Origin: the human T2T-CHM13v2.0 reference genome, Homo sapiens | Strand: one strand, 5' to 3' | Assembly (NCBI RefSeq): GCF_009914755.1 | Contig: NC_060947.1 | Length of the DNA: 64,000 nt | Program-made: the position numbers and the translations under genes | Notes under the pieces: model-generated | Databases searched by the model: none | Seen by the model: only the letters and a program-made list of their open reading frames with translations | What the model was told of the DNA's origin: nothing | Part shown: positions 2,891-45,000 of the stretch, piece by piece | Numbering within the stretch: position 1 is the stretch's first letter | Layout: each line of letters opens with the position of its first letter

Positions 2891-3398
2891 CTGCCTAACT
2901 TTTCTCTCTTACTGCCACACTACAAGGGAATGGTGCTAAACCTGAAAGAAATCAGGCAATGATTTACTTAGAACAGTGTACACTTTTATCCTTAGAAGCA
3001 ATAGACAACAGCCATAGCAACACAAACAAGTGAACACAGCAAGAATTGTATTTATCTGGTTTAGGGCCGAGTGAAAAGCATGTGGTAAGATTTCTCTGGG
3101 ATTAGGGGCAGAAGTTTAGCCTGGGGAAAGCTTATGAGCACCAAGCTTTTAAATTGAGAACTTTTTGGGACCTGTATGCTATTTTCTCTTCGTGTTTATA
3201 GGTGCCTAGCATGTTTATCTTAATTGTTCCAATGAACCTTTCACCTAAGCCTCTTAAGTCAAGGATCTTTTAGTATGGTTCCACCTACATATAAGAATTT
3301 CAAGAAGTTATTTCCCTATACATCAAATGACAGGAAACTGGGAATTTGCATAAATCTCAGTCAGTAAGAACACTTTGACTCTTAAAATGGGAAATGGA

Positions 3399-3732
<334 letters not shown>

Positions 3733-4312
3733 TTAAAAGAGATGATCATAAAGTAAAAAAAAAAAAAAGACAGATCAGGATATAAATAGCACTAACATGG
3801 AAAGTATATGCCTGCCTCCTTGTAGGTCTGAATAGAAACTAAAACCTTTAACACTCCCATCATCTTTTGGTACAAGATAAATTGAAGCCCTCCTCCTCCC
3901 AGCATGGGTCAACCCTGAAACAGATTGCCTACATATATGTCCGAGCATTACCCAATATATAGTAGTTAAAAGTGTGTGAAATAACTTCATTTTAAATATA
4001 ATTAAAGACATTTTTAATTAAGAAGAATTAAAAATAAACATCTCTTTTTCAAGCTTCACAATTATCTGAGGTACGTTTGTGAGTGGCTATAAATTTTGGA
4101 AATGACCACATTCATTAGTAGAATCCTGGACAAGTGAATTTTTGCAAATGTTGTTTTGGTATATGAACCTTATTGCAACTAAAATGAGTTTGTGAATTGA
4201 CCCAAATTGGAGCTGTTTTAGCATTATCTATAGTAATGTGAGTCATTTTTTGGAAGGAAATTTGAAAATGACTAATACTATAAGTGAACAGTTATTGAGA
4301 ACTCTCTTCTGA

Positions 4313-4629
<317 letters not shown>

Positions 4630-8279: not shown

Positions 8280-11200
8280 GTAAGTATGATGTCTTTTCTC
8301 ACTGTCTTTGAAAATATAGTTCTAATATTAATATAGACAGGTAAAGAGTGGCTAACTTCTTATGTTTCCCATCGTCAAAGGGAACATAGAGTTGTAATAG
8401 GGAGAACAATTACATTTTCTTTATTATACAAATATCCATTCATAGTCTTTTGTGATATCTTGACAAATTGCTTGCTTTGCTTTGCATTCCCAGATGAATT
8501 TAACCAGTTGAATAATGGAAACCACTTTGCATTGATTTTGGCATTTACTGTAGTCAGATACATTACAGGCATACTAATAGGTTAGGCTAGATGGGAAAAA
8601 TGTTAGCTTAAAGGATAAGTATATTGGGAGAAGACAGGGAGCCAAACAAGATTTAAATATTCTGCAATGTGAACTACTGCTGATCTCCACATTTTGAAAA
8701 CGATAATTAGAAATTTCATGTTTTGTGCTTCTATTGAGGTTTATGTGGAAAATTATTGAAGAGTTTCTGCCTTGAATTTGGAATTTTAACTTATGAAAAT
8801 GTAGCTTTATAATTCATACTCAATAAACACACTTTCAGTAAATAAAAGTTGGATTGTACCCAAGACAGTATTATAAGCAATATGGGTGGCTTTGTTGCAG
8901 TTTTTCCACCTTTACCATGACATTCATCCAAAGTTTCTATTTAGCCATACTTTTTGCTTCAGAAAATTCAAATTAAGTTTCCCAACAAGTTTTCTGATGT
9001 GCTGTTTTTGATATATGGGTGATTAACTCTACTATATGCGGTTAAGTATGGAGCCATAATCTACACATTAAGATAAGTCCTATTACTTTAATGCCATATT
9101 TGAAATTTGTACTAATAACACTGCATTGATATTGTACATTATGTGAAAATGAACAGTAGCTGTGCCAAAAGGAGCATAACATTATTGTCAAATCTTGATT
9201 ATTCATGTTAATAGAGGTCAGCATTTTTGGAGGCATGTATAGATTCCAGATCAGTACAAATCACTTATATTTACTCCATTGTGACATGTATTTTATTATA
9301 TTTTGTGCTTATATATGTCTATATGTATACATATATATGTTTGAGTATATATGTATCACAAATTTTTATCATAATTAACGCTTTTTCTAGGGCTAATTTT
9401 AAAAATTTGTAATTTTCATTTTCTTATGTAACAGTAGAGGTAGTTAGTGACATGGTAACTCAGAATTTGTCAGTTAGTAATGATATGGAATAAAATAGAC
9501 TTGATTCCAAAAACAAGCTTTCATAGTTATGGCTAGAGAAAGGTTAAAAAAAACCTAACTGGTTATTAAAGCCTTGATTTAGACAATTGAATAATGTGTT
9601 GCTCACGCAAGGACACCGTTTCTCCACATCCTGGCAAGTTGTCATCACTGTTTCTGTAATTATTATGAAATACTAGGCCTAAACTATTTTATGTGTGTGT
9701 GTTTAAAGCTTGTAGGTAATTGAAAAGACTAGAATGTTTGGAAATCACTAGCATAGATAATTAAGTGGCAATTGGAAAGTTGCATACTGATGGACAGTTT
9801 TTCTACACCACTTTCCTGGTATAAAGTGAAGTTAAATTTTGGACCACTTTCTTATCTTTGCAAGATCTTACTGCCATTCTGTTTGGTAAACAAAATCCTA
9901 TCTTCTCCCTTCTCTGATATCTAGGAGCAGATCCAAGATATTAAGTAGGGCTTCCAATTTCTTGGTTTGAAGGATATCTCTTGATCAAGGACTTCTGCAT
10001 TTTGGCAATTTTTTTTTAGTTAAGTCTCTGGATGGTTTTATTTGTATATAAGTGTCCTGTCAACTTTTGTTTGGGAAAGAATTTCGTAATTTCAGTAATG
10101 TCAATATAGCAAGATAAATGTTTTCCTTTATTTTCAGATCATAGATGATTTACATGGAGACTGTAGGCCTAGGATTAGACCATTGAATTTTTTAAAATTT
10201 TTACTGATATTGACAATGGAAATTTGCCATTAAGGAAAGGAAAATATATATTTGCAAAACAAATTTGCACATGAAGAAGGAATTTTAGAACTTTTGCTGT
10301 ATCATAAATTAAAATCTTAACAGTTTATATGTGATATTTAAAAAATATTTATTAGGTAAATTGTTTTTCTTCCTAAAACCTTTACATGAAGCCAGCCAGT
10401 GTTATGAACTATTCCTTTTCTAGATTGAGAATTTGAGCATAACAAACTGTTAGCTTCTAATAATTCAGTGATAATTTCAGAAGGAACTAGAAAATAAGAT
10501 TACCAGTTCTCATTGCATGTTGTATCACTTCATGTAGCATCTTGCTCTTTCCAGTGTCCTAAAGATGCTATATAGATCATTTCATTCGATAGATAAATTA
10601 CCAAATTCTGAAAGCCTGATATGTAATCAGTTTGGTCCATCCATCTTTAAGGATCGATTTGGATATTCACGTAGCTGATCAAACTGTATAAACATTAGTC
10701 ATTAAAGTGGCTTAAAACAAGCATCCTATTTCATGGGTCATTTCATCATATAATAAAAATAAATATTCAGTCTGTAGTTCATATTTCTAGGGATTACATA
10801 CAGAGAAACAGAATAGGTTTAATTTTTCCTTCTCACTAACACAGATATGCTGTTGCTTAATAGGCCTTTTGCAAAATGCATGGACTATCAAAGTAGTCCA
10901 CGTAGATGTCAAATAAGATGATTATGTTTGCTCTAGTTCTACTAGGGAAATACATAATACTAAATTTCAAATATTTATATTCTGTTTTGATAGCTCCTTA
11001 GATAGGCAAAATATGAATACTGTCCACACAAATCTTAGGCTTCATATTGTTTTTTATTTCTGGAAGTCAGGAACAAATGCCTAACCCCAAAACTATGTCC
11101 ATGTTGAATGTTATTTACTTTCCTAGATTTATTTGTTTAGACAACTTATTAGCGTACTTGAAGATCCATGTAATCACTGTGATTGTACATAACAACATAA

Positions 11201-28742: not shown

Positions 28743-29605
28743 TCAGACAGAATGTGAGTTCCATTAACAATACTATTATTTCTATTTTTATTACATTTGT
28801 AGGTAGTATGTCACTGGATAAATTTTACACTGAGCATTAAATTATAGCATTGCCCAAATGCCATGAAATACGGCACAATTGTGAATGGCATAAACCCTTT
28901 TTAAAATAAAGTTTCCAATTATTTCAATTACATTTATTTTTATAGTTCAGTCTTAAAGAGGCCTTACTCAAATTCCTTGATGGATTTGTAAAAAACATAG
29001 AATTTTTGTTACATTCTTGGGTTAAAATCTCATATCCACCTTACTTAAACTCTGAATACCTGTGTCTTTGGATACATTATTTAATCTCTCAAAATGTTTT
29101 CTTCTTTTTGGCATGGTGAGAAAACTAGAAAAAAAAACCCAGAACATTTCTGAGAGAACTACTCACTTTTCTTTTTAAAAAAAGTATTACAAAATTTAGA
29201 AAAACTACTAGACATTCTGCTTTGGATGTAGTGCTGACTAAAAGAGTAATAAGTAAACCAAAAATAAATGTGACTTCTGAGAGAAATTGATTATGTTAGA
29301 GCCAGTGACAATGACAGGTCAATTATGTGTTCATTGGATTGCATTCAAAACAGTTTTGAAAGCAGAATTTGGACCATTTATGTAAGATAATCACTTAGTT
29401 AACTTCAAAGAAAGAACAAGTTTTCATTTAACATTTTGATGATGTCAACTCCACTTCCAGCAGTATTGTCTGTGAAGGTAGTAGTGGTGGAGCTTCTGTA
29501 AGCAACCAAAAATCTTTATTGGGTAATCTAATTGTATTATTTAGGATTCTCAAGAAAAAAAAAACAGAATGATCTCACAGACTCTCTCTCTCTCTATATA
29601 TATAT

Positions 29606-30229
29606 ATATAATTTGTGCACCAAGCCCAGTGATACGTAATTTACCTATGTAATACACCTGCACATGTACCCAACTCAACCTGAAATAAAAGTTAGAAAAA
29701 AAGAAAAACCTCATTTTTATAATTCTGTTTCTCCAGAACCACTCTTGGTACCAAAATCTGTGTGAGGGTTCTCCAGAGAAAGAAATCCAGTAGAATATAA
29801 AAAAAGTAAGGAAATTTATTATGAGAATTGGCCGATGTGATTATGAAGGCCCATAATACTCATTGGTGATTCTAATAAAAATTAAAGTTTGAAAGCCACT
29901 AATACAGATCATTGCTATGATGGTTAGAAGTATAATAGTTAACTTTAAGTATCAACTTGGCTGCACCATGGGGTGTCCAGATATTTGGTGAAACGTTATT
30001 TATGTGGTCTGTGAGGATGTTTCTGAATGAGATCAGCATTTGAAATCAGTAGACTCAGTAAAGCGCATTGCCTTCCCCAATGTGGATGAGCATCATCCAA
30101 TCCCCTGAAAACCTGAATAGAGCAAAAGCTGGATGAAGGGAGAATCTCTCTCTCTCTCTTACTCTTTCTCTGCATAGGTCTTCTCCTGCATTCTGACTTG
30201 GGCTGGAACTTACACCATTGTCTCTCCTA

Positions 30230-30230
<1 letters not shown>
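29606..30230. repeat. Left arm of 625-bp inverted repeat (pairs with 31165-31789)
   Basis: Base-by-base reverse complement with about 8 substitutions counted by eye. Confidence 0.97.
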
Positions 30231-30303
<73 letters not shown>

Positions 30304-30582
30304 CTACCTATATATAAATCTCTTTCTCTCTCTCTCTCTCTCACTCTTTCTCTGCATAGGTCTTCTCTTGCATTCTGACTTGGGCTGGAGCTTACACCAT
30401 TGTCTCTCCTACTTCTCAGACTTTTATATTGCAAATGTTGAGACTTCTCAGCCTCAATAATCACATGAACCAATCTCATACATACATATTTATATATATA
30501 TATATGAGAGATTTTATATATAGGCGATTTATATCTATATCTATAGATATAAATTGGTTCATATGTTTATTGAGGCTGAGAA

Positions 30583-31102
30583 ATATATATTATATATAAA
30601 TACATATATAAACATATACATATATAAATACATATATAATATATAATATATATTATATATATTATATAATATATAATATATATTATATATTATATAATAT
30701 ATATAATATATAATATATATTATATATATTATATATTATATAATATATATTATATAATATATAATATATAATATATATTATATATTATATAATATATAAT
30801 ATATAATATATATAATATATTATATTATATATAATATATATAATATATATAATATATTATATTATATATAATATATATAATATATAATATAATATATTAT
30901 ATATAATATATATAATATATATATTATATATAATATATAATATATATTATATATTATATAATATATATTATATATTATATTATATATATTATATAATATA
31001 TAATATATAATATATATATAATATATATTATATAATATTATATAATATATATTATATATTATATAATATATATATTATATATTATATAATATATATATAT
31101 AT
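30583..31102. repeat. ~520-bp AT-rich low-complexity tract (TATAA/ATATT units), free of G/C from ~30632 to 31102
   Basis: Directly visible. Confidence 0.98.
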
Positions 31103-31164
31103 GAGATTGGTTCTTGTGATTACTGAGGCTGAGTCTCAACATTTGCAATATAAAAGTCTGAGAA

Positions 31165-31789
31165 GTAGGAGAGACAATGGTGTAAGTTCCAGCCCAAGTC
31201 AGAATGCAGGAGAAGACCTATGCAGAGAAAGAGTAAGAGAGAGAGAGAGATTCTCCCTTCATCCAGCTTTTGCTCTATTCAGGTTTTCAGGGGATTGGAT
31301 GATGCTCACCCACATTGGGGAAGACAATGTGCTTTACTGAGTCTACTGATTTCAAATGCTGATCTCATTCAGAAACATCCTCACAGACCACATAAATAAC
31401 GTTTCACCAAATATCTGGACACCCCATGGTGCAGTCAAGTTGATACTTAAAGTTAACTATTATACTTCTAACCATCATAGCAATGATCTGTATTAGTGGC
31501 TTTCAAACTTTAATTTTTATTAGAATCACCAATGAGTATTATGGGCCTTCATAATCACATTGGCCAATTCTCATAATAAATTTCCTTACTTTTTTTATAT
31601 TCTACTGGATTTCATTCTCTGGAGAACCCTCACACAGATTTTGGTACCAAGAGTGGTTCTAGAGAAACAGAATTATAAAAATGAAGTTTTTCTTTTTTTC
31701 TAACTTTTATTTCAGGTTGAGTTGGGTACATGTGCAGGTGTATTACATAGGTAAATTACGTATCACTGGGCTTGGTGCACAAATTATAT
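31165..31789. repeat. Right (donor) arm of the 625-bp inverted repeat
   Basis: Continuous with MLT2 on its left and the old L1 3'UTR on its right, so this is the original copy. Confidence 0.95.
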
Positions 31790-31994
31790 TGTCACTTAGG
31801 TAACAAGCAGAGCACCCAATATGTACTTTTTTGATACTCTCCCTCCTCTCACTTTCCACCCTCAAGTAGGCCCTGAAGTCTCATTTCCTTCTTCATGTCC
31901 ATGTGTACTCAATGTTTAGCTCCCACTTATAAGTGAGAACATGCAATATTTGGTTTTCTGTTCCTATGCTAATTCCCTTAATATAATAGCCTCC
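31687..31994 (-). mobile_element. Older L1 (L1PA15-16/L1PB/L1MA-like) 3' end, part 1; continues at 38537-38873
   Basis: taacttttatttcaggtt..gggtacatgtgcagg...gctcccacttataagtgagaacatgc; the sequence resumes after the inserted L1PA. Confidence 0.85.
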
Positions 31995-38536
<6,542 letters not shown>

Positions 38537-38873
38537 GATTATAGCCTTCAGCTCCATCTATTTTGTCTCAAAGGACATGATATCATTCTTTTTTATGGCT
38601 GTGTGATATTCCATCACGTATGTGTACCATATTTTTTATATCAAGTCCACCACTGATGGGCATCTAGGTTGATTCCATGTCTTTACTATTGTGACTAGTG
38701 CTGCAGTGTACATAAGCATGCATGTGTCTTTATGGTAGAATAATGTATATTCCTTTGGGTATAAATCCAGTAATGAGACTGCTGGGTCAAATGGTAGTTC
38801 TGTGTTAAGTCCCTTAAGAAATCTCTAAACTGCTTTCCACAATGGCTAAACTAACATACATTCCAACCAACAA
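38537..38873 (-). mobile_element. Older L1 3' region, part 2, ending abruptly at the HERV-K junction
   Basis: cagctccatc...aaaggacatgat..cattcttttttatggctg...aactgctttccacaatggc. Confidence 0.85.
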
Positions 38874-42098: not shown

Positions 42099-45000
42099 TC
42101 CTGCTCTCTCCTGTGGGTATTTCGTGCTATAAATTTTCCTCTAAGCACTGCTTTAGCTGTGTCCCAGAGATTCCTGTATGTTGTGTCTTTGTTATCATTG
42201 GTTTCAAAGAATGTATTTATTTCTTCCTTAATTTTGTTATTTACCCAGGAGAAGCTTGTTCAGTTTCCATGTAGTTGTGTGGTTTTCAGTGAGTTTCTTA
42301 ATCCTGAACTCTAATTTGATTGCACTGTGGTCTGAGAGACTGTTTGTTATGATTTCCATTCTTCTGCATTTGCTGAGGAGTGTTTTACTTCCAATTATGT
42401 GGTCAATTTTAGAATAAGTACAATGTGGTGCTGAGAAGAATATATATTCTGCTGATTTGGGGTAGAGTTGTGTAGATGTCTACTAGGTCGGCTAGGTGCA
42501 GAGCTGAGTTCAAGTCCTGAATATCCTTGTTAATTTTCTTTCTCATTGATCTGTCTAATATTGACAGTTGGGCATTAAAGTCTCCCACTATTATTGTGTG
42601 GGAGTCTAAGTCTCTTTGTAGGTGTCTAAAAACTTGCTTTATGAATCTGGGTGCTCCTATATCGGGTGCATATATATTTAGGATAGTTAGCTCTTCTTGT
42701 TGCATTGATCCCTTTACCATTAAGTAATGCCCTTGTTTGTCTTTTTTGATCTTTGTTGGTTTAAAGTCTGCCTTATCAGAGACTAGGATTGCAACCCCTT
42801 TTTTAATCGCTTTCCATTTGTTTGGTTAATATTCCTCCATCCCTTTATTTTGAGCCTATGTGTGTCTTTGCACCTGAGATGTGTCTCCTGAATAAAGCAC
42901 ACTGATGGGTGTTGACTCTTTATCCAATTTTCCAGTCTGTGTCTTTTAATTGGGGCATTTAGCCCATTTACATTTAAGGTTCATATTGTTATGTGTGAAT
43001 TTGATCCTATCATTATGATGCTAGCTGGTTATTTTGCCTGTTAGTTGATGCAGTTTCTTCATAGTGTCAGTGGTCTTTACAATTTGGTATGTTTTTGCAG
43101 TGTCTGGTACTGTTTTTTTTTCTATATTTAGTGCTTTCTGCAGGAGCTCTTGTAAGGCAGGCCTGGTGGTGACAAAATCTCTCAGCATTTGCTTGTCTGT
43201 AAAGGATTTTCTCTTTTGCTTATGAAGCTTAGTATAGCTGGATATGAAATTCTGAGTTGAAAATTCTTTTTTTAAGAATGTTGAGTATTGACCCCCACTC
43301 TCTTCTGGCTTGTAGGGTTTCTTCAGAGAGATCCATTGTTAGTCTGATGGGCTTCTCTTTGTTGGTCACTCAACCTTTCTTTCTGGCTGTGCTTAATCTT
43401 TTTTTCCTTCATTTCAAACTCGGTGAATCTGACAATTATGTGTATTGAGATTACTCTTCTCAAAGAGTATTTTTGTGGTGTTCTTGTATTTCCTGAATTT
43501 GCATGTTGGCCTGTCTTGCTAAGTTGGGGAAGTTCTCCTGGATAATATCTTGAAGTGTGTTTTCCAACTCGGTTCCATTCTCCCAATCACTTTCAGGTAC
43601 ACCAGTCAAACATAGGTTTGGTCTGTTCACATTGTACCATAGTTCTTTGAGGCTTTGGTCATCCCTTTTTATTCTTTTTTCTCTAATCTTGTCTTCACGC
43701 TTTATTTCATTAAGTTGATATTCAATCTCTAATATCTTTTCTTCCACTTGATAGATTCAGCTATTGATGCTTGTGTATGCTTCACAAAATACTCGTTCTG
43801 TGTTTTTCAGCTCCATCAGGTCATTTATGTTCTTCTCTAAACTGGTTATTCTAGTTAGCAATTCCTCTAACATTTTTTCAAGGTTCTTAGCATTTTTGCA
43901 TTGGATTAGAACATGCTCCTTATCTCAAAGGAGTTTGTTATTACCCACCTTCTGAAGCCTACCTCTGTCAATTCATCAAACTCATTCTCCATCCAGTTTT
44001 GTTCCTTTGCTGGTGAGGAGTTGTCATCCTTTGGAGGAGAAGAGGCGTTCTGGTTTTTGGAATTTTCAGCCTTTTTGTGCCTATTTTTTTTCATCTTCAT
44101 GAATTTATCTACCTTTGGTCTTTGATGTTGTGACCGTCAGATGGGATTATTTTGTGGATGTCCTTTTGATGTTGATGCTATTTTTTTCTGTTAGTTTTCT
44201 TTCTAACAATCAGGTCCCTCTGCTGCAGGTCTGCTGGAATTTGCTGGAGGTCCACTCCAGACCCTGTTTTTCTAGACTTATCACCAGCAGAGGCTGCAGA
44301 ACAGCAAAAGTTGCTGCCCGTTCCATACTCTGGAAGCTTTGTCCCCAGGGGACACCCACCAGATGCCAGCTGGAGCTCTGCTGTATGAGGTGTCTGTCAA
44401 CCTTTGTTGGGAGGTGTCTCCCAGTCAGGGGGCATGGGGGTCAGTATCCCACTTGAGGAGGCAGTCTGTCCCTTAGCAGAGCTCAAGCACTGTGCTGGCA
44501 GTTCTGTTCCTCTTTTCAGAGCTGGCAGGCAGGAATGTTTCAGTCTGCTGAAGCTACGCCCACAGCCATCCCTTCCCCCAGGTGCTCTGTCCCAGGGAGA
44601 TGGGAGTTTTATCTATAAGCCCCTGACTGGGGAACCTGCCTTTCTTTCAGAGATGCCCTGTCCAGAGAGGAGAATTCTAGATAGGCAGTCTGGCTACAGT
44701 GGCTTTGCAGAGCTGTGGTGGGCTCCACCTGGTTTGAACTTCCCGGCAGCTTTGTTTACACTGTGAGGGGAAAACCGCCTACTCAAGCCTCAGTAATGGC
44801 AGACACCCCTTTCCCCACCAAGCTCGAGTGTCCCAGGTTGACTCAGACTGCTGTGCTGGCAGCAAGAATTTCAAGCCTGTGGATCTTAGCTTGCTGGGCT
44901 TCTTGCGGGTGGGATTTGCTGAGCTATACCACTTGACTCCCTGGATTTAGCCCCCTTGCCAGAGGAGTGAATGTTTCTGTCTTGCTGGTGTTCCAGACGT

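What the first reader, a model, noticed from the sequence alone, without database searches (positions are those of the whole stretch)
29606..31789. Young 625-bp inverted duplication forming a ~2.2 kb fold-back around an AT-only core
Seen: 29606-30230 is the reverse complement of 31165-31789 with about 8 substitutions and no indel I could see (~98.7%). The copied unit is not one transposon. It spans an MLT2 piece, a MER5-like scrap, a second MLT2 end and part of an old L1 3'UTR, so it is a local DNA-level copy far younger than the elements it contains. The copy sits inside the (CT)n(TA)n tract of the MLT2 and starts with ATATA microhomology to the donor end (aaattatat at 31781-31789). Inference: replication template switching seeded by a TA microsatellite. 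The result could extrude a large stem-loop, mediate recurrent inversion of the ~930-bp spacer, or give long dsRNA if transcribed.
Basis: partly seen in the sequence, partly recalled or inferred. Interest (0 to 1): 0.8.

Follow-up and report, generated by a model that had tools for sequence, protein, structure and literature searches.

The report
Nested inverted duplication around TA-only core
A 630-base stretch downstream of TENT5D on the human X chromosome was copied backwards next to a pure A/T repeat, making a 2.2 kb fold-back that is a clean but ordinary product of DNA copying errors and has no known function.

Summary
29606-30235 is the reverse complement of 31160-31789: 630 nt, 9 mismatches, no indel, 924 nt apart. 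This composite unit occurs only twice in the whole genome.

- **Donor arm.** The right arm is the donor. Repeat-family homology runs unbroken across both of its boundaries. The left flank is single-copy.
- **Junctions.** The insert lies in a compound (CT)n(TA)n microsatellite that now flanks it on both sides. Microhomology is 5 nt at one junction and 4 nt at the other. This is the signature of a two-jump template switch.
The spacer is itself an older-looking fold-back. Its ~150-nt arms (30327-30478 / 31103-31250) differ by 5 substitutions and one 3-nt indel.
The inner arms enclose a 519-nt core that is 99% A/T and contains spacer-less perfect palindromes up to 66 bp.
- **Not a PATRR.** The core has no single centre of symmetry, so the locus resembles a palindromic AT-rich repeat (PATRR) but fails that test.
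- **Age.** Divergence of 1.3% means ape-age, not recent.

Inversion, fragility and double-stranded RNA were not testable here. Verdict: a real, well-resolved new example of a known mutation class, of modest interest.

The parts
29582..29610 (.). Outer copy of the compound microsatellite, (CT)7 followed by about 7.5 (AT). Its last 5 bases (29606-29610, ATATA) are shared with the donor end and form the left junction microhomology.
   Evidence: Sequence read; TRF (TA)8 at 29595-29610; the register comparison starts matching at 29606.
29606..30235 (-). Left (copied) arm: reverse complement of 31160-31789, with 9 mismatches and no indel.
   Evidence: It stops where the L1-like repeat continues on the right side, so it is the copy.
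30232..30299 (.). Inner copy of the compound microsatellite, (TC)19.5 then (TA)15. TCTC at 30232-30235 is the right junction microhomology. Base 30231 matches neither source.
   Evidence: TRF rows 30232-30270 and 30270-30316; sequence; register comparison.
30300..30326 (.). Short stretch between the microsatellite and the inner left arm, with no counterpart on the right. It is presumed to be pre-existing flank.
   Evidence: The alignment of 30300-30485 to the reverse complement of 31095-31280 fails left of about 30318-30327.
30327..30478 (-). Inner left arm: reverse complement of 31103-31250, differing by 5 substitutions and one 3-nt indel. Its first 91 nt duplicate the end of the outer left arm (30145-30235, 96%).
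   Evidence: (family D3).
30479..30583 (+). Non-mirrored left part of the spacer. It holds a 16-nt unit repeated 2.6 times (30497-30539) and a third, short copy of the LTR 5' end (30553-30582, 28 of 30 to the reverse complement of the inner left arm's end).
30584..31102 (.). A/T-only core: 515 of 519 A/T, 84.9% AT/TA dinucleotides, degenerate 7-nt period with 74 copies. It contains spacer-less perfect palindromes of 66 bp (30647-30712) and 48 bp (30723-30770), and others with 1-3 nt loops.
31103..31789 (+). Right (donor) arm in its ancestral context. It consists of an LTR-like repeat from 31103, a second repeat family around 31537-31700, and the start of an L1-like repeat from about 31687 that continues past 31789. 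Bases 31103-31250 pair with the inner left arm; 31160-31789 pair with the outer left arm.

Best explanation
The left arm (29606-30235) is an inverted copy of 31160-31789, made by a two-jump template switch during DNA synthesis.

A growing strand stalled in a (CT)n(TA)n microsatellite beside an already hairpin-prone A/T-rich fold-back. It annealed through 5 bases (ATATA) to the opposite-sense strand about 1.5 kb away and copied 630 nt. It then returned through TCTC to the (CT)n run, upstream of where it had left, so the compound microsatellite was copied a second time and now flanks the insert.

Read from the other direction, the same product arises if the new strand folds back and primes on itself near the base of the inner hairpin. 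The sequence cannot tell the two apart.

The inner fold-back (about 150-nt arms around the TA array) was made the same way, either earlier or in the same multi-jump episode.

Shown here:
- the anatomy of the locus;
- the direction of copying (right arm to left arm);
- the junction microhomologies;
- the flanking duplication of the microsatellite.

Inferred: the mechanism, the order of events and the age.

Today the locus is most likely a neutral relic. As single-stranded DNA it can fold into a long hairpin, and its A/T core can form small cruciforms that hinder replication. No cellular role is indicated.
For: 1. The unit is composite and two-copy. The full 630 nt occurs only at the two arms in the genome; other matches are 72-80% identical and partial.
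2. Donor direction, outer boundary. 38 of 40 scored genome matches to 31640-31990 lie elsewhere and run on past 31789; the other two are the query itself and the left arm, which stops at that boundary. All 5 re-aligned copies cross it as well.
3. Donor direction, inner boundary. 6 of 6 LTR-family copies align across 31160. The left flank is single-copy.
4. Junctions. ATATA is shared at 29606-29610 and TCTC at 30232-30235. A (CT)n(TA)n tract lies on both sides of the insert. [quoted passage not shown] PMC7954356 (passages read) describes that order as appearing as one large insertion and needing re-invasion.
5. Differences lie on both arms. In the LTR part the left arm is derived at 29960, 30065 and 30086, and the right arm at 30071, polarised by 6 outgroup copies. 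This is as expected for independent decay after a copy event.
6. The site was hairpin-prone. 30327-31250 folds as DNA at -314 kcal/mol, against -103 +/- 5 for 20 shuffles (z = -40.7). The whole 2184 nt folds at -962.6 kcal/mol with 620 pairs in the outer register.
7. Long AT-dinucleotide-rich sequences are reported to impede replication forks and form secondary structures (PMC6765107, abstract and passages).
Against: - No pre-event allele was seen. No ape or other human sequence is on hand, so the insertion is inferred from one haplotype.
- Base 30231 fits neither template.
- The two microsatellite copies differ in length, (CT)7 against (TC)19.5, which needs later slippage.
- Divergence does not prove the order of events. 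Inner arms show 5 of 149 and outer arms 8 of 625 substitutions, Fisher p = 0.145.
- In the self-priming version the copy starts 90 nt inside the inner stem (31160) rather than at its base (31250).
- Break repair with templated synthesis would leave much the same scar.
- A third short LTR-start copy at 30553-30582 is not explained by the model.
Confidence: 0.72

Rival explanations
1. The pair is much older than 1.3% divergence suggests, and the arms are kept alike by arm-to-arm gene conversion, as in the large X and Y palindromes.
For: Large X palindromes keep more than 99% arm identity through gene conversion and are conserved to macaque (search-listing abstract of PMC8981503; abstract and passages of PMC8327919). 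Here the long arms (630 nt) are more alike (98.6%) than the short inner arms (about 96.7% plus an indel), which is the direction expected if conversion needs long homology.
Against: The difference in divergence is not significant (p = 0.145). The 8 differences are spread along the arm rather than cleared in tracts. No orthologue was available.
Confidence: 0.2
2. One complex episode with several template jumps made both the inner and the outer inverted copies at once, rather than two separate events.
For: Both copies use the same donor and both have junctions in or beside CT/TA microsatellite. Their divergences are statistically indistinguishable. Multi-jump events are a described feature of replicative rearrangement (PMC2621351, abstract only).
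Against: In the 91 nt present three times, the inner copy differs from both others at 3 sites, while the outer copy and the donor are identical up to the junction. At the 2 of these sites that could be polarised, the inner copy carries the derived base. The numbers are small.
Confidence: 0.3
3. Repair of a double-strand break in the microsatellite: one end copied 630 nt from the nearby inverted template and was then joined by microhomology. No replication fork was involved.
For: The microhomologies are the same 4-5 nt. Templated inverted insertions at breaks through fold-back are documented in yeast (PMC11724301, abstract only).
Against: Those documented insertions are mostly about 5-34 bp (same abstract), not 630. 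The re-copied (CT)n(TA)n tract is more simply explained by a return upstream of the point of departure.
Confidence: 0.2
4. Assembly artefact: a fold-back chimeric read built into the consensus.
For: A/T-only arrays are hard to sequence, and palindromic sequence analysis remains difficult even with next-generation sequencing (PMC4940405, abstract passage).
Against: A chimeric read would give identical arms, but here there are 9 differences, derived on both arms. Both outer flanks are ordinary sequence: single-copy on the left, a continuing repeat on the right. The 2.2 kb structure is short relative to long reads (read length recalled).
Confidence: 0.03
5. A functional hairpin locus, such as a precursor of small RNAs or a regulatory element.
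For: If transcribed, a 630-bp near-perfect stem would form (by analogy with the DNA fold). Some inverted duplicates are reported as expressed (PMC5398296, abstract and passages).
Against: There is no annotated gene or functional element here (hub table). No Rfam family scores at gathering threshold in 29000-32500 (0 matches). The arms are made of decayed repeats.
Confidence: 0.04

Closest known systems
Template-switch mutations (four-point model of Loytynoja and Goldman; FoSTeS/MMBIR)
   Same: A segment is inserted as the reverse complement of nearby sequence, with two jumps and microhomology at the junctions. The return point lies upstream of the point of departure, which gives a flanking duplication. 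The event creates a hairpin-forming inverted repeat (PMC7954356 passages; PMC2621351 abstract).
   Different: The great-ape events in PMC7954356 are short-range, searched within tens to hundreds of nucleotides. Here 630 nt were copied from about 1.5 kb away, and the event sits on top of an earlier fold-back that uses the same donor.
Palindromic AT-rich repeats (PATRR11, PATRR22, PATRR17 and others)
   Same: Several hundred bp, a centre more than 90% A/T, and GC-richer ends that are mutually complementary (PMC4940405; PMC1851657). Here the core is 519 nt and 99% A/T, and the flanking inverted arms are about 58% A/T.
   Different: PATRRs are nearly perfect palindromes without a spacer, and central symmetry decides their instability. 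Here the core has no single centre of symmetry, and about 160 nt at its left end has no mirror image. The core's self-complementarity (81-86%) is no higher than its direct self-similarity (80-86%). No translocation is known at this site.
AT-dinucleotide-rich sequences of common fragile sites (FRA16C, FRA16D Flex1)
   Same: A long interrupted AT/TA array that folds into branched hairpins. AT/TA dinucleotide content is 84.9% here, against 61-71% in the FRA16C fragments tested. Arrays over 200 bp are predicted to fold readily (PMC6765107).
   Different: The array shown to create a fragile site was 3.4 kb; this one is 0.5 kb. No fragility data exist for this locus.
Large X-chromosome palindromes (Warburton 2004; Jackson 2021)
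   Same: Inverted arms of high identity around a spacer on the X chromosome. In principle the locus is open to arm-to-arm conversion and spacer inversion (PMC8327919).
   Different: Those have arms over 8 kb (the Warburton criterion as quoted in PMC5398296), more than 99% identity (PMC8981503 listing abstract) and carry testis-expressed gene families. This one has 0.63 kb arms, 98.6% identity and no gene.

Membership tests
Template-switch inverted duplication (four-point model / FoSTeS-MMBIR) | The inserted segment is the reverse complement of nearby sequence | tested here: met
   630 nt, 9 mismatches, donor 924 nt away.
Template-switch inverted duplication (four-point model / FoSTeS-MMBIR) | Microhomology at both switch junctions | tested here: met
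   ATATA at 29606-29610. TCTC at 30232-30235, with one odd base at 30231.
Template-switch inverted duplication (four-point model / FoSTeS-MMBIR) | A pre-event allele without the insert exists in an outgroup or another haplotype | not testable with these tools
   No primate or second human genome is held; the tool states that G000 has no relatives here.
Template-switch inverted duplication (four-point model / FoSTeS-MMBIR) | The donor copy lies in its ancestral context and the copy is truncated | tested here: met
   Repeat-family matches cross 31789 (38 of 40 scored; 5 of 5) and cross 31160 (6 of 6). The left arm ends at both points.
PATRR | Several hundred bp with more than 90% A/T and GC-richer ends | tested here: met
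   The core is 519 nt and 99.2% A/T; the inner arms are 57-58% A/T.
PATRR | Nearly perfect palindrome without a spacer; central symmetry | tested here: not met
   The register set by the arms gives 32-62% complementarity in the core. The best register (80%) lies elsewhere and recurs every 7 nt. Gapped self-complementarity is 81-86%, no better than direct self-similarity.
PATRR | Lies at breakpoints of constitutional translocations; size-polymorphic alleles | not testable with these tools
   Searches for PATRR together with X chromosome and for FAM46D together with inverted repeat found no report for this site.
Large X-chromosome palindrome | Arms over 8 kb with more than 99% identity | tested here: not met
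   Arms of 630 nt at 98.6%.
AT-dinucleotide-rich fragile sequence | A long AT/TA-rich array (over 200 bp) with predicted stable branched structure | tested here: met
   519 nt with 84.9% AT/TA dinucleotides. The minimum-energy fold of the core is a set of branched hairpins.
AT-dinucleotide-rich fragile sequence | Breaks or gaps under replication stress | not testable with these tools
   Needs cytogenetic or break-mapping data.
Polymorphic inversion flanked by inverted repeats | Both spacer orientations are seen in people | tested here: inconclusive
   No chrX row at 80.45-80.47 Mb (hg38; my recalled conversion from CHM13) in Table S1 of the 612-candidate catalogue of PMC13629690. Five number prefixes were searched and the only coordinate hit was on chr12. 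Absence from a catalogue is not absence of the variant. CHM13 itself carries the original orientation, because both repeat continuities lie on the right arm.

The most novel reading that the evidence does not exclude
The locus is a palindrome caught while growing. An A/T-rich hairpin first acquired about 150-nt arms. By holding the strand end next to its own stem, it then guided a second self-primed copy that lengthened the arm to about 690 nt.

If this hairpin-guided, stepwise outward growth is general, it would offer a mechanism for how PATRR-like sites, and perhaps the seeds of sex-chromosome palindromes, arise from TA microsatellites. It would also predict that this site is still length-variable, invertible and break-prone in human populations and in mismatch-repair-deficient tumours.
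Probability: 0.15. Interest if true: 0.6.

Novelty: new member of a known kind. Interest (0 to 1): 0.3.

Why it matters
The locus is a clean natural example in which both junctions, the donor and the flanking re-copied microsatellite of a kilobase-range template switch can still be read. It is stacked on an earlier fold-back at the same TA array.

Such loci show how TA microsatellites can seed hairpin-forming structures of the kind that cause translocations and fragile sites elsewhere. The locus also gives concrete, cheap predictions for ape T2T assemblies and human pangenome haplotypes.

On present evidence it has no effect on any gene, and nothing about it is unexpected for specialists in genome instability.

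Tried and rejected
- **Two independent transposon insertions in opposite orientation: rejected.** The unit joins at least three repeat families in the same order. It is 98.6% identical between arms, against 72-83% for family members.
- **A mobile fold-back element: rejected.** There is no third copy of the unit in the genome.
- **One long perfect palindrome, later disturbed by a 182-bp tandem duplication in the left arm: judged less likely.** The (CT)n(TA)n stretch plus 27 nt between the two 91-nt copies has no counterpart in the right arm. The same compound microsatellite at the outer junction would then be a coincidence.
- **The core as a true palindrome: rejected** by the register scan.
- **CpG decay as the source of the two CG/CA differences: not supported at the one site that could be polarised.** At 30065 all six outgroup copies (6 of 6) carry the right arm's A, so the left arm gained the CpG. 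At 29834, which lies outside the LTR part, no outgroup aligned, so it is undecided.
- **Led nowhere:**
  - Five papers asked for by id are not held: Warburton 2004 (two tries), Porubsky 2022, Lewis 2005 and Inagaki 2005.
  - A genome-wide look for other long A/T-only runs with flanking inverted copies could not be made.
In that sample the finding is the only inverted pair of 150 nt or more at 97% or better.
  - Rfam gave nothing.

Full report
**The observation**

The repeat finder reports arms 29606-30235 and 31160-31789: 630 nt, 99% complementary, 924 nt apart. A base-by-base comparison in register shows 8 mismatches in 29606-30230, a ninth at 30231 and no indel. Seven of the 8 are transitions.

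A search of the whole 3.1 Gb genome that holds the window finds the full 630-nt unit only at these two places. The other scored matches (40 of 3059 first-look candidates were scored) are 72-80% identical and cover only query 317-630, the LTR-like part. One further row is a 91-nt, 96% match at 30327-30417 inside the locus itself.

In a small base-rate sample, this is the only inverted pair of 150 nt or more at 97% or better. The sample was the window plus 162 kb to its left, cut into 28 pieces of 10 kb. The sample is too small to say how rare such pairs are genome-wide.

**The unit is composite, and the right arm is the donor**

Three sub-intervals of the right arm belong to different repeat families:
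- 31160-31473;
- about 31537-31700;
- 31687 onwards.

I cannot confirm the names MLT2, MER5 and L1, because no repeat library is on hand.

Of the 40 scored matches to 31640-31990, 38 lie elsewhere in the genome and run on past position 31789. The other two are the query itself and the left arm, and the left-arm match stops exactly at that boundary. Five copies that I re-aligned all cross it.

Six of six LTR-family copies also align across 31160, the inner boundary of the right arm. So the right arm lies in unbroken ancestral context at both ends, and the left arm is a cut-out copy.

The sequence to the left of the insert (29300-29585) is single-copy.

Because both continuities are on the right arm, the CHM13 haplotype carries the spacer in its original orientation, or has inverted it an even number of times.

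**The junctions**

- Left of the insert lies (CT)7 followed by about 7.5 (AT) units (29582-29610). The last five bases, ATATA, are also the start of homology to the donor end.
- Right of the insert, homology ends at 30230. Base 30231 fits neither source. TCTC (30232-35) is shared with the donor and opens a (TC)19.5(TA)15 tract.

The same compound microsatellite therefore flanks the insert on both sides. In the four-point description of template switching this is the order 4-1-3-2: the strand leaves at the end of the (TA) run, copies the opposite-sense template from 31789 down to about 31160, and returns upstream of where it left, so the microsatellite is copied twice. PMC7954356 (passages read) describes such events as looking like one large insertion and requiring re-invasion of the new duplex.

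Read in the other direction, the same product arises if the new strand folds back and primes on itself. The sequence cannot decide between the two.

30327-30478 is the reverse complement of 31103-31250, differing by 5 substitutions and one 3-nt indel. The whole of 30327-31250 aligns to its own reverse complement at 80.7%.

As single-stranded DNA this inner stretch folds at -314 kcal/mol, against -103 +/- 5 for 20 dinucleotide-preserving shuffles (z = -40.7). The first 91 nt of the inner left arm duplicate the end of the outer left arm (96%).

A single strand of 29606-31789 therefore folds into one long hairpin (-962.6 kcal/mol, 620 pairs in the outer register) with a bulge on the left at about 30231-30412. 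Inside that comes the remaining inner stem and then a branched A/T core.

**The core**

- Bases 30584-31102 are 515 of 519 A/T, with no G.
- AT/TA dinucleotides make up 84.9%.
- It is a degenerate 7-nt repeat of 74 copies.
- It holds spacer-less perfect palindromes of 66 bp (30647-30712) and 48 bp (30723-30770), and several with 1-3 nt loops.

It does not have one centre of symmetry. The register fixed by the arms gives only 32-62% complementarity, while the best register (80%) lies elsewhere and recurs with the repeat period. Its gapped self-complementarity (81-86%) is no better than its direct self-similarity (80-86%).

About 160 nt at the left of the spacer have no mirror image. That stretch holds a third short copy of the LTR start (30553-30582, 28 of 30 to the reverse complement of the inner left arm's end). 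The homology of this third copy ends within 0-3 nt of the only indel between the inner arms, which I cannot explain.

**Order of events and age**

In the 91 nt that are present three times, the inner copy differs at 3 sites from the outer copy and the donor, which are identical to each other up to the junction. At the 2 sites that could be polarised, the inner copy is the derived one.

The inner arms are more diverged (5 of 149) than the outer arms (8 of 625), but not significantly so (Fisher p = 0.145). Two steps is therefore my preferred reading, and one multi-jump episode is not excluded.

Outgroup polarisation of the four differences in the LTR part puts three changes on the left arm and one on the right, as expected for independent decay.

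Outer divergence is 1.28% (95% interval 0.55-2.5%). With recalled figures (human-chimpanzee X divergence near 1%; about 0.5e-9 substitutions per site per year), this means roughly 5-20 million years if there has been no gene conversion, and longer if there has. 'Young' is true only relative to the repeats inside the unit.

**How it most likely works**

The best-supported account is a microhomology-mediated template switch at a stalled strand end in the (CT)n(TA)n tract, next to a structure-prone A/T array. This fits published evidence that long AT-dinucleotide-rich sequences impede replication forks and fold into secondary structures (PMC6765107, abstract and passages).

What the locus does now is inferred only:
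- In single-stranded DNA it can form a long hairpin.
- In duplex DNA only the small perfect A/T palindromes have the central symmetry that cruciform extrusion needs. A 9-bp central spacer with four nearby mismatches abolished extrusion at physiological salt and instability in PATRR22 (PMC1851657).
- Recombination between the arms could invert 30236-31159, as happens in large X palindromes (PMC8327919).

None of this could be tested here.

The locus is not in Table S1 of a 612-candidate inversion catalogue at my recalled hg38 position (PMC13629690 supplementary tables). This is weak evidence either way. No Rfam family matches, and nothing is annotated here (hub table).

**Comparison with what is known**

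- **Template-switch products.** It works like, and passes the testable criteria for, a template-switch inverted duplication. It is larger in reach than the short-range ape events of PMC7954356.
- **PATRR.** It resembles a PATRR in size, A/T content and GC-richer complementary ends (PMC4940405). It fails the defining near-perfect, spacer-less symmetry, so I do not file it as one.
- **AT-rich fragile sequences.** It resembles these in composition but is much shorter than the 3.4 kb array shown to create a fragile site.
- **Large X palindromes.** It is far below that class in arm length.
- **Literature.** Searches for PATRR with X chromosome, FAM46D with inverted repeat and PATRR origin in apes found nothing on this site.

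**Verdict**

This is a real and neatly resolved nested inverted duplication, a new example of a known mutation class, and probably a neutral relic. The boldest reading still open is that it shows stepwise, hairpin-guided growth of an A/T-rich palindrome that may still be unstable. I give that about 15%.

Noticed in passing
window 33625-34941 and 42548-43806: Three blocks of inverted repeat (252-301 nt, 88-96% complementary) about 8-9.5 kb apart. The block ends read like LINE-1 coding sequence (the family is named from recall). They are probably two L1 pieces in opposite orientation.
   Followed up: partly
L033 (G000:C23:78808001-78818000), 3290-4378 and 8584-10000: Inverted blocks of 482 nt (95.2%), 319 nt (91.9%) and 234 nt (91.5%), 4.2-6.2 kb apart, about 50 kb to the left of the window.
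   Followed up: no
window 30497-30582: A 16-nt unit repeated 2.6 times, resembling the junction between the TA array and the LTR start, followed by a third short same-sense copy of the LTR start. The homology of that copy ends within 0-3 nt of the only indel between the inner arms. Unexplained.
   Followed up: partly
window 30647-30712, 30723-30770, 30744-30798, 30928-30980: Perfect A/T-only palindromes of 66 and 48 bp without a spacer, and of 55 and 53 bp with a 1-nt centre, inside the core. These are the parts most able to form cruciforms in duplex DNA.
   Followed up: partly
window 3464-3707 / 4323-4566 and 37912-38246 / 38538-38872: Two further close inverted pairs of lower identity (244 nt at 84%; 335 nt at 75%) in stretches that NCBI masks as repeats (hub table). 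They are likely ordinary repeat pairs.
   Followed up: no
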